From assembly GCF_006345805.1 (NCBI RefSeq), contig NW_021826789.1:1-12026 (forward strand): a DNA stretch of 12,026 nt, written 5' to 3'. The position numbers are program-made. Origin of the DNA: Octopus sinensis (Eukaryota). This document shows positions 3,469-4,885 of this stretch, one piece after another (positions within the stretch are counted from its first letter, which is position 1; each line of letters opens with the position of its first letter).

Positions 3469-4885
3469 ATAAGAAATATTAAAATACTAAGTCTCTCTAA
3501 AAGAGAACAACGGCAGCGTTCCCGGAAAATATTAGTTATCGCCATACTAATATGGCATTCTTATAAAAATAAGAATAAAGCTGACCGCTTATTAGCTCCA
3601 TGAGGCCATCGCCTTAGTTAGCTATTTGATACACAAACTGTATCCATATAACCTTTGAACAAGGGAGGTCAGTCGCTCCACACTACTACTTGGCCGGCAG
3701 CTACAGACGCGTTTCGGGGTATTGCCCCTTTTCAATGCAGCGTAGCCAAACCAGTAGGTGTCGCTTCCGTCGCTTCCGACATTCTCTGTTCAAAGGTTTT
3801 ATTTACCTAGCTTCGGTGGAATACATCCACTTGTTTTCAATAATATAAATATTAAAATTACTAAGTCTCTCTAAAAGAGAACAACGGCAGCGTTCCCGCG
3901 AAAAAATATTAGTTATCGCCATACTAATATGGCATTCTTATAAAAATAAGAATAAAGCTGACCGCTTATTAGCTCCATGAGGCCATCGCCTTAAGTTAGC
4001 TATTTGATACACATGGAGCTAATAAGCGGTCAGCTTTATTCTTATTTTTATAAGCAGGAGAGCCTTGCGACACTCCGTGAACCATGTACCCAACGCCGAT
4101 CTTCGATAGAAGCAGGATTGTCGTCCACCGAAACTGGTGAACTTGGGAAACATCCATTTCGCCAGCGGAGACCAAACCCGTTCACCATCCGTTCACACCA
4201 CAAACGCAAACACCCACTAACCCCCACATACATATTATACGATAGGATGGTTTCCGCACTGTTTCCGCCTTCCAAATTTCCTTATAAGGCATTGATCGGA
4301 TCGGAAGTATAGTAGAAAACATTTATCCAAGATACCGCCCAGTGAGACTGAACCTGGAACCACGTGGGTGCAAAGAGAAATTCTTAACCAAATAGCCATA
4401 TTTTCGCCAATGAGTAGAAACAAAAGAGAGAATTCCAAAGATATTACAGAGTTAAACATTGTCTTCTCTCATTCGTTTTCGGCTTCATATTGAGCTTATT
4501 GTCAGCATGGGATGAACATAGAAACAAAAGGTTAATTGTGGAACGGGACTGCAAGGACATCCATGCAAATGCGGAGGCGATTGTATGGTTTCCGGGCAGG
4601 TTTCGCAATTACCGTATTGGTACACCGTTGCCATGATATATCGTCAATATTTCCAAACAGAAAGACAGCGAGTCGGCAGAATCGTTTGTACGCCGGACAA
4701 AATGCCTAAAGGCCTTTCGTCCGTCTTTACGTTCTGAGTTCAAATTTTGTCGAGTGCAACTCTGCCTTTCATCCTTTCGTGGCCGGTAAAGTACCAGTTG
4801 AGCACAGGGGTCAATGTATTCGACATATCCCTTAGCCGTAATTGCTGACTTCCTGCCCAAATTTGAAATCAATATTTCCAAACAT

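What the first reader, a model, noticed from the sequence alone, without database searches (positions are those of the whole stretch)
3696..3747. Hammerhead ribozyme with a compensatory U3-A8 core and a dimerisation-type stem III
Seen: all three stems, GAAA and GUC are intact, but CUGAnGA reads UUGAAAA. Established: positions 3 and 8 form a tertiary Watson-Crick pair, so C3U plus G8A is compensatory. Minimal palindromic stem III (ACGCGU) marks Penelope/retrozyme hammerheads that cleave as dimers. Inference: a functional variant that CUGAnGA pattern searches would miss, cleaving between 3706 and 3705.
Basis: partly seen in the sequence, partly recalled or inferred. Interest (0 to 1): 0.88.

Follow-up and report, generated by a model that had tools for sequence, protein, structure and literature searches.

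The report
Variant hammerhead ribozyme in a retrozyme-like repeat
This is a real hammerhead-ribozyme motif with an already documented natural core variant (U3-A8), sitting in a young, partial copy of a short animal retroelement repeat, so it is a new example of a known kind and not a new kind of ribozyme.

Summary
On the minus strand, 3747..3696 reads as a type I hammerhead: 6-bp helix I, UUGAAAA, 4-bp helix II (G10.1-C11.1), GAAA, palindromic ACGCGU, and GUC cleaved between 3706 and 3705. Only core positions 3 and 8 depart from consensus, as a U-A pair.

Chance is unlikely. My descriptor hit the window once. In 1080 local dinucleotide shuffles it gave 97 hits, and 2 of those were 3/8-compensatory.

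The motif lies in a 581-bp element, 3474-4054. It is 1.5 copies of a ~375-nt unit, with a 43-nt inverted piece at the RNA-sense 5' end and (TA)n at the 3' end. That matches a Penelope-type insertion of a non-LTR retrozyme-like repeat.

The two repeated arms show 0 substitutions in 162 nt, so U3-A8 was inherited and did not arise by local decay. A homodimer is predicted to form the double hammerhead.

Natural U3-A8 covariation was reported in 2011 (PMC3088659) and in Penelope-like element hammerheads in 2014 (PMC4209133).

Rfam gives no hammerhead hit. Other genomic copies could not be fetched, so family consensus and activity remain untested.

The parts
3696..3747 (-). It comprises helix I (proximal 6 bp 3741-3736/3705-3700, internal loop UAC/U, distal GGC/GCC), the core, helix II and palindromic helix III. 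Further pairing extends helix I to 3753/3690.
3729..3735 (-). First core box UUGAAAA (positions 3-9). U3 is at 3735 and A8 at 3730, in place of C3 and G8.
3716..3728 (-). Helix II: 4 bp GGGG/CCCC with G10.1-C11.1, closed by the 5-nt loop CAAUA.
3706..3715 (-). Second core box GAAA (3715-3712), the palindrome ACGCGU (3712-3707; helix III can form only 1-2 bp within one molecule) and C17 (3706). Predicted cleavage lies between 3706 and 3705.
3474..3635 (-). Repeat arm A1 (162 nt), the 3'-terminal partial unit in RNA sense.
   Evidence: (D17, D18), 27, 53: 162 of 162 aligned bases identical to A2, with 5 gap columns
3636..3846 (-). Segment B (211 nt), present once, carrying the hammerhead. A1 plus B make one 373-nt unit with 41.6% GC.
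3847..4013 (-). Repeat arm A2 (167 nt), the upstream copy in RNA sense.
4012..4054 (+). 43-nt perfect inverted copy of 3937-3979 (also equal to 3560-3602). It is joined to the end of A2 with a 2-nt overlap. I read it as the inverted 5' piece or 'tail' typical of Penelope-type insertions.
   Evidence: the anatomy is described in passages of PMC8557442
3432..3468 (.). (TA)n microsatellite abutting the RNA-sense 3' end of the element. It is the likely insertion target.

Best explanation
The site is a genuine type I hammerhead of the canonical metazoan design: helix I 6 bp plus an internal loop, helix II 4 bp, and a helix III too short to form within one molecule.

It is carried by a solo, roughly 1.5-unit copy of a ~375-nt non-coding repeat. 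That repeat behaves like a non-LTR retrozyme, meaning a non-autonomous passenger of Penelope-like elements.

Proposed mechanism (inferred):
1. Family members in tandem are transcribed from the minus strand.
2. Two hammerheads pair through the ACGCGU palindrome into a double hammerhead.
3. Each cleaves after GUC, releasing unit-length RNA that can be circularised.
4. A Penelope-type reverse transcriptase and GIY-YIG endonuclease copies the circular or multimeric RNA into microsatellite targets. This gives 5'-truncated partial tandems with an inverted 5' piece.

The U3-A8 core was already present in the template that made this copy. It most likely keeps activity, because it preserves the 3-8 Watson-Crick pair.

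This locus has a single hammerhead. On its own it could at most be cut once, or in trans with another copy, and it cannot release a unit-length RNA.
For: Shown:
- All non-3/8 core positions match the consensus, as do G10.1-C11.1, the helix sizes and the palindromic helix III. The design follows the canonical metazoan description in PMC4209133 (passage seen).
- Chance expectation is about 0.002 per window for a 3/8-compensated hit (2 of 1080 shuffles).
- The homodimer MFE is the double hammerhead, with a 6-bp intermolecular helix III and both helix II stems. Its energy is -53.3 kcal/mol against 2 x -23.6 for monomers.
- The 377-nt stretch 3846..3470 is strongly self-paired: -121.8 against -94.6 +/- 5.6 kcal/mol, z -4.84, 0 of 100 shuffles as stable. 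The hammerhead sits at the tip of a long hairpin.
- Unit length (373-378 nt) and GC (41.6%) fit the non-LTR retrozyme description in PMC7229834 (passages seen): 150-450 bp and under 45% GC.
- The locus is a partial tandem, with a perfect 43-nt inverted piece at the RNA-sense 5' end and (TA)n at the 3' end. These are the insertion features listed for Penelope-like elements in PMC8557442 (passages seen).
- A1 and A2 differ by 0 substitutions in 162 nt. Two post-insertion substitutions landing exactly on positions 3 and 8 are therefore very improbable.

From the literature:
- U3-A8 occurs naturally and such variants were active in vitro (PMC3088659, passage seen).
- It is found in PLE hammerheads (PMC4209133, passage seen).
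- Animal retrozymes derive from PLE pLTRs (bioRxiv 10.64898/2026.07.22.740005, abstract and passages seen).
Against: - No Rfam hammerhead family matched: not at gathering score, nor at E<=10 on 451 nt or on 76 nt.
- Only one hammerhead and only 1.5 units are present, so the tandem, HHR-per-unit criterion is not met at this locus.
- No other copy of the family could be examined. There is therefore no covariation evidence and no proof that U3-A8 is the family state.
- The monomer fold energy of the 64-nt domain is not exceptional (z -1.61).
- PLE hammerheads cleave poorly in vitro even as dimers (PMC4209133 and PMC6765202, passages seen). An altered core could lower activity further.
- A template longer than one unit could have been an uncleaved multimer, which would say nothing about activity.
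- No reverse transcriptase was identified in the window. The only PLE-like trace is a weak GIY-YIG lead 5 kb away on the other strand (negative).
Confidence: 0.62

Rival explanations
1. It is a dead relic. A canonical C3-G8 retrozyme or PLE hammerhead picked up two independent transitions in an inactive lineage. This copy was then made by DNA-level duplication, or by copying an already inactive, uncleaved transcript.
For: - Both changes are transitions.
- Rfam models do not recognise the motif.
- The locus is a solo partial copy that cannot self-process at both ends.
- Monomer derivatives are described as likely non-transposing offspring (bioRxiv 10.64898/2026.07.22.740005, passage seen).
Against: - The other 11 fixed core positions, G10.1-C11.1, all three helices and the palindrome are intact.
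- The arms of the element show 0 substitutions in 162 nt, so decay since insertion is negligible.
- Among 2-mismatch hits in shuffles, only 2 of 91 were 3/8-compensating.
- The same covariation is recurrent in nature (PMC3088659 and PMC4209133, passages seen).
Confidence: 0.25
2. It is part of the pseudo-LTR of an autonomous Penelope-like element, not of a separate non-coding retrozyme.
For: - PLE pLTRs carry type I hammerheads with palindromic helix III. PLE insertions are partial tandems with inverted 5' pieces (PMC4209133, PMC8557442 and PMC6765202, passages seen).
- There is a GIY-YIG-like lead at 8958-9293 on the + strand.
Against: - The repeated arms are separated by only 211 nt, with no ORF between them.
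- ORFs next to the element gave no RT or GIY-YIG Pfam hit. 12 ORFs were scanned, with no relevant family at E<=0.1.
- The GIY-YIG lead is 5 kb away on the opposite strand.
Confidence: 0.1
3. It is a chance resemblance with no hammerhead ancestry.
For: There is no Rfam hit, and the monomer fold z-score is only -1.61.
Against: - 2 of 1080 shuffled windows gave a 3/8-compensated hit.
- On top of that, the site has a palindromic helix III, canonical 6/4-bp helices, a repeat context and a PLE-type insertion anatomy.
Confidence: 0.03

Closest known systems
Canonical metazoan type I hammerheads of non-LTR retrozymes and satellite repeats (newt, axolotl, Schistosoma, coral, mussel; PMC7229834 and PMC4209133)
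   Same: - Type I topology, with helix I 6 bp followed by an internal loop and helix II 4 bp.
- Helix III of 1-2 bp with a 2-4 nt palindromic loop, and predicted action as a dimer.
- Host repeat of a few hundred bp, low GC and a highly self-paired RNA.
   Different: - The core is U3-A8 instead of C3-G8.
- Only 1.5 units and one hammerhead are present at this locus.
- Loop-loop tertiary contacts were not verified. The resemblance of the UAC internal loop and the CAAUA loop to the Schistosoma ribozyme is recalled, not tested.
U3-A8 min-hammerheads of Schistosoma mansoni Cercyon Penelope-like elements (PMC4209133)
   Same: - The same compensating core covariation.
- The same link to Penelope-type retroelements.
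- Palindromic 15.2-16.2 positions.
   Different: Those are minimal motifs: no real helix III, a long helix II, a bulged nucleotide after A9, and no loop-loop design. The motif here has the canonical full architecture and no bulge.
Natural U3-A8 hammerhead core variants reported by Perreault et al. 2011 (PMC3088659)
   Same: C3/G8 covary to U3/A8, and these are described as compensatory changes that keep the active structure.
   Different: I saw only text passages. The organisms and architectures of those examples are in figures I could not see.
Penelope-like element pseudo-LTRs (PMC8557442, PMC6765202)
   Same: - Partial tandem arrangement and 5' truncation.
- An adjacent inverted piece or 30-40 bp tail.
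- Microsatellite target.
- A hammerhead in the repeated part.
   Different: There is no RT or GIY-YIG ORF between the repeats, and the unit is only ~375 nt.

Membership tests
Hammerhead ribozyme (any type) | Conserved core apart from positions 3/8: U4 G5 A6 N7 A9, G12 A13 A14, A15.1-U16.1, and H17 at the cleavage site | tested here: met
   All are present. The only mismatches to the descriptor are positions 3 and 8.
Hammerhead ribozyme (any type) | C3 and G8 (the tertiary Watson-Crick pair) | tested here: not met
   The site reads U3 and A8. Pairing potential is kept. This covariation is documented in natural hammerheads (PMC3088659 and PMC4209133, passages seen).
Hammerhead ribozyme (any type) | Three helices around the core with G10.1-C11.1 | tested here: met
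   Helix I has 6 bp plus distal pairs. Helix II has 4 bp with G10.1-C11.1. Helix III has 1-2 bp within one molecule and 6 bp between two.
Rfam hammerhead families (Hammerhead_1 and relatives) | Covariance-model score at or above the gathering threshold | tested here: not met
   No hammerhead family was reported at gathering score, or at E<=10 on 451 nt and on 76 nt.
Hammerhead ribozyme (any type) | Site-specific self-cleavage giving a 2',3'-cyclic phosphate and a 5'-OH | not testable with these tools
   This needs in vitro transcription of monomer and tandem-dimer constructs.
Canonical metazoan type I hammerhead (PMC4209133 definition) | Helix I 6 bp, helix II 4 bp, helix III 1-2 bp capped by a 2-4 nt palindromic loop | tested here: met
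   The dimer with extended helix III is the cofold MFE.
Canonical metazoan type I hammerhead | Conserved loop 1 / loop 2 tertiary interaction | tested here: inconclusive
   An internal loop (UAC/U) lies 6 bp from the core and there is a 5-nt loop 2. No 3D or covariation test was possible.
Non-LTR retrozyme | Short tandem repeats (150-450 bp) with a type I hammerhead in every unit | tested here: not met
   The unit of 373-378 nt fits, but the locus holds about 1.5 units and one hammerhead. It corresponds to a solo or monomer derivative in the sense of bioRxiv 10.64898/2026.07.22.740005.
Non-LTR retrozyme | Low GC (under 45%), no ORF, highly self-paired unit RNA | tested here: met
   GC is 41.6%. 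There are no family hits for the overlapping ORFs. The fold z-score is -4.84.
Non-LTR retrozyme | Expression as unit-length linear and circular RNA | not testable with these tools
   No transcriptome was available.
Autonomous Penelope-like element | RT plus GIY-YIG ORF between pseudo-LTRs | tested here: not met
   Only 211 nt lie between the arms, and no RT or EN Pfam hit was found among the 12 ORFs scanned.
Penelope-type insertion signature | Partial tandem, adjacent inverted 5' piece or tail, microsatellite target | tested here: met
   The features are as described in passages of PMC8557442.

The most novel reading that the evidence does not exclude
U3-A8 is the fixed, selected core of a whole active retrozyme family with the full canonical, tertiary-stabilised type I architecture, in a lineage where retrozymes have not been described. 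The flanking SINE-like repeats recall cephalopod SINEs, though that is from memory only. If so, a complete family of circRNA-forming elements would run on the alternative core pair. That would be a natural experiment on the role of the 3-8 pair in hammerhead catalysis.
Probability: 0.3. Interest if true: 0.45.

Novelty: new member of a known kind. Interest (0 to 1): 0.27.

Why it matters
It shows that consensus-box and Rfam-based screens undercount animal hammerheads, because they miss copies that carry the 3/8 covariation. It also adds a clean, very young example in which the covariation sits in a full canonical type I scaffold, not a minimal PLE motif.

The locus carries textbook Penelope-type insertion scars on a non-coding ~375-nt unit. 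That supports the recent proposal that animal retrozymes are passengers of Penelope-like elements.

It does not open a new question. The covariation, the dimer mechanism and the element class are all in print.

Tried and rejected
- **Rfam.** Three searches returned no hammerhead family. The only rows were chance-level matches: LSU_trypano_mito at E 1.1, rli53 at E 9.3 and DUF3577 at E 7.7.
- **Other copies through proteins.** The + strand ORF 3630-3848 crosses the motif. Its F codon (3729-3731) reports A8 and its M codon (3735-3737) reports U3. The word-index search found nothing.
- **Exhaustive protein search.** This gave one protein, P0001, at E 3.6e-4 with 35% identity. It is a 364-aa tandem-repeat protein with a ~55-aa period. 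Its alignments skip the core codons, so it says nothing about positions 3/8. I treat it as an unexplained weak match.
- **Exact 23-nt scan.** I scanned helix II through the cleavage site against genome contigs (bacteria and archaea only) and found 0 matches.
- **GIY-YIG lead at 8958-9293.**
  - Pfam, NCBIfam and the search among longer proteins were negative.
  - Only the Atlas feature search points to GIY-YIG.
- **Papers not held.** Przybilski & Hammann 2007 and Lunse et al. 2017 were not available. What I say of them comes from citing papers.
- **Failed literature calls.** Searches failed because a search term was too short.
- **Cephalopod retrozymes in print.**
  - One search found 5 papers with 'hammerhead ribozyme' and 'octopus', 4 of them listed. 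None is about cephalopod hammerheads as far as the listings show.
  - One search was badly posed: all 12 listed papers had 0 occurrences of 'retrozyme'.
  - These searches do not show that cephalopod retrozymes are unpublished.
- **Supplementary files.** They are closed. Supplementary figures of PMC4209133 and PMC7229834 may list mollusc families or further U3-A8 examples.

Full report
**Observation**

On the minus strand, 3747..3696 reads as follows:
- GGC, then UAC, then GCUGCA (helix I 5' strand).
- UUGAAAA (core positions 3-9).
- GGGG-CAAUA-CCCC (helix II).
- GAAA, then CGCG, then U and C (C17).
- UGUAGC (helix I 3' strand), then U, then GCC.

In coordinates, U3 = 3735, A8 = 3730, G12-A15.1 = 3715-3712, U16.1 = 3707 and C17 = 3706.

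The MFE fold of 3753..3690 forms helix I as 6 proximal pairs, an asymmetric internal loop and further distal pairs. It also forms the 4-bp helix II. The fold energy itself is unremarkable (z -1.61; 12 of 200 shuffles fold as well).

**Chance**

I wrote a type I descriptor: helix I >=5 bp, helix II >=3 bp, a 15.2-16.2 pair, and at most 2 mismatches in the fixed core.
- It hits the window once on both strands, at this site. The only mismatches are positions 3 and 8.
- In 1080 shuffles that preserve dinucleotides within 500-nt blocks it gave 97 hits: 0, 6 and 91 with 0, 1 and 2 mismatches.
- Only 2 of those hits had a Watson-Crick-compensating 3/8 pair. Only 13 had helices as long as those observed.
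- A looser scan for minimal Penelope-type motifs found nothing else in the window.

The motif is therefore very unlikely to be a chance match.

**Rfam**

No hammerhead family was reported at gathering thresholds over the window. None appeared at E<=10 over 451 nt or over 76 nt. This is a tested and failed membership criterion for the curated models.

**Context**

The motif sits in a 581-bp element, 3474-4054. In RNA sense (minus strand) the order is:
1. A 43-nt piece (4054..4012) that is a perfect inverted copy of 3937-3979.
2. Arm A2 (4013..3847, 167 nt).
3. Segment B (3846..3636, 211 nt), which carries the hammerhead.
4. Arm A1 (3635..3474, 162 nt).
5. A (TA)n microsatellite (3468..3432).

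A1 and A2 are identical at 162 of 162 aligned bases. They differ only by 5 gap columns, mostly in homopolymer runs.

The unit is 373-378 nt with 41.6% GC. The ORFs overlapping it (3630-3848 + and 3995-4312 +) gave no credible match. As RNA the unit is strongly self-paired: -121.8 kcal/mol against -94.6 +/- 5.6 for shuffles, z -4.84, 0 of 100 as stable. The hammerhead caps a long hairpin.

The flanks are microsatellites and SINE-like repeats (family D19). From memory they resemble cephalopod SINEs. No tool confirmed the organism.

**Comparison with the literature**

- *Canonical design.* Cervera & de la Pena 2014 (PMC4209133, passages seen) describe canonical metazoan type I hammerheads as helix I 6 bp, helix II 4 bp, and helix III 1-2 bp capped by a 2-4 nt palindromic loop. 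These act as dimers when copies lie in tandem. That is exactly this design.
- *Dimer action.* Weinberg et al. 2019 (PMC6765202, passages seen) say the same of PLE hammerheads, and note very low in vitro rates even as dimers.
- *Host repeat.* Cervera & de la Pena 2020 (PMC7229834, passages seen) define non-LTR retrozymes as 150-450 bp, low-GC tandem repeats carrying such hammerheads. They are expressed as highly self-paired circRNAs of roughly 170-400 nt.
- *Insertion anatomy.* Craig et al. 2021 (PMC8557442, passages seen) list the Penelope insertion features: 5' truncation, partial tandems, an adjacent inverted 5'-truncated copy, a 30-40 bp tail and microsatellite bias. All are matched here.
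- *Origin of retrozymes.* Li, Clavereau & Pollet 2026 (bioRxiv 10.64898/2026.07.22.740005, abstract and passages seen) argue that animal retrozymes derive from PLE pseudo-LTRs. They describe solo monomers as probable non-transposing offspring.

**The core variant**

The C3-G8 Watson-Crick pair of the active fold is established (PMC3884650, passage seen).

Perreault et al. 2011 (PMC3088659, passage seen) state that C3 and G8 covary to U3 and A8 in several natural hammerheads. They also state that such variants had already been proven active in vitro.

Cervera & de la Pena 2014 found the same covariation in Schistosoma Cercyon PLE hammerheads. A descriptor with that core retrieved about 1,300 hits.

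What is slightly different here is that the covariation sits in a full canonical scaffold and not in a minimal PLE motif.

**Mechanism**

RNAcofold of two copies of 3753..3690 gives the double hammerhead as its MFE. Both helix II stems form, helix I pairs form between the two molecules, and there is a 6-bp intermolecular ACGCGU/ACGCGU helix III. The energy is -53.3 kcal/mol against -47.2 for two monomers.

Within one molecule helix III could form only 1 bp plus a tetraloop, or 2 bp around an impossible 2-nt loop.

I infer that family members in tandem cleave as dimers after C17. Unit RNAs would then be circularised, and a Penelope-type RT/EN would copy circular or multimeric RNA into (TA)n targets.

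The zero-substitution arms imply that U3-A8 was inherited from the template and not acquired here. They do not prove that the template had been processed by the ribozyme. An uncleaved multimer would give the same product.

This locus has one hammerhead and cannot excise a unit by itself.

**What stayed open**

- The exact-match scan of prokaryotic genomes found nothing.
- Protein-level searches for other copies failed or were uninformative.
- Family consensus, helix covariation, expression and cleavage are therefore untested.
- Supplementary files that may list mollusc or further U3-A8 families could not be seen.

**Verdict**

This is a real hammerhead-derived motif of the metazoan retrozyme/Penelope kind. 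It carries a known natural core covariation and sits in a young solo copy. It is a new member of a known kind, of modest interest.

Noticed in passing
window 1324-1401 and 3053-3130 (+); a related reverse-oriented stretch near 4270-4400: SINE-like dispersed repeats (family D19, 82% identity over 78 nt) that continue into microsatellite tails. From memory they resemble cephalopod (octopus) SINEs. The organism was not confirmed by any tool.
   Followed up: no
window 8958-9293 (+): A stop-to-stop ORF with a GIY...YIG-like stretch. The Atlas feature search put it nearest to eukaryotic clusters in which 18-33% of members carry Pfam GIY-YIG (score 0.95). Pfam, NCBIfam and a search among longer proteins were negative. 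It may be a remnant of a Penelope-like endonuclease.
   Followed up: partly
window 11642-11911 (-): An 89-aa ORF whose nearest Atlas clusters are eukaryotic hypothetical proteins with no Pfam family (score 0.97), and with no Pfam hit of its own. From memory it resembles the C-terminal region of some retroelement polyproteins.
   Followed up: partly
window 9847-9950 and 10048-10151: A 104-nt inverted repeat, 98% complementary, with a 97-nt spacer (I11). It lies next to a CT-rich low-complexity tract at 9475-9870. It could be a foldback or MITE-like element.
   Followed up: no
window 11062-11334: Three diverged direct repeats of about 115 nt spacing (D20, 63-78% identity over 40 nt).
   Followed up: no
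window 165-830, 1519-1596, 4887-4932, 5076-5470, 5614-5704, 6100-6520, 6970-7490, 8360-8770: Dense microsatellites: (ATA)n, (TA)n, (TGTA)n, (ACT)n and (TG)n. They make up a large part of the window, and GC falls to 11-19% in places.
   Followed up: no
protein P0001, matched by the + strand ORF 3630-3848: A 364-aa protein made of ~55-aa tandem repeats. It was the only hit in 1.84 billion representatives (E 3.6e-4, 35% identity, 5 stretches). It may be a translated tandem DNA repeat from another organism. Its relation to this element is unresolved.
   Followed up: partly
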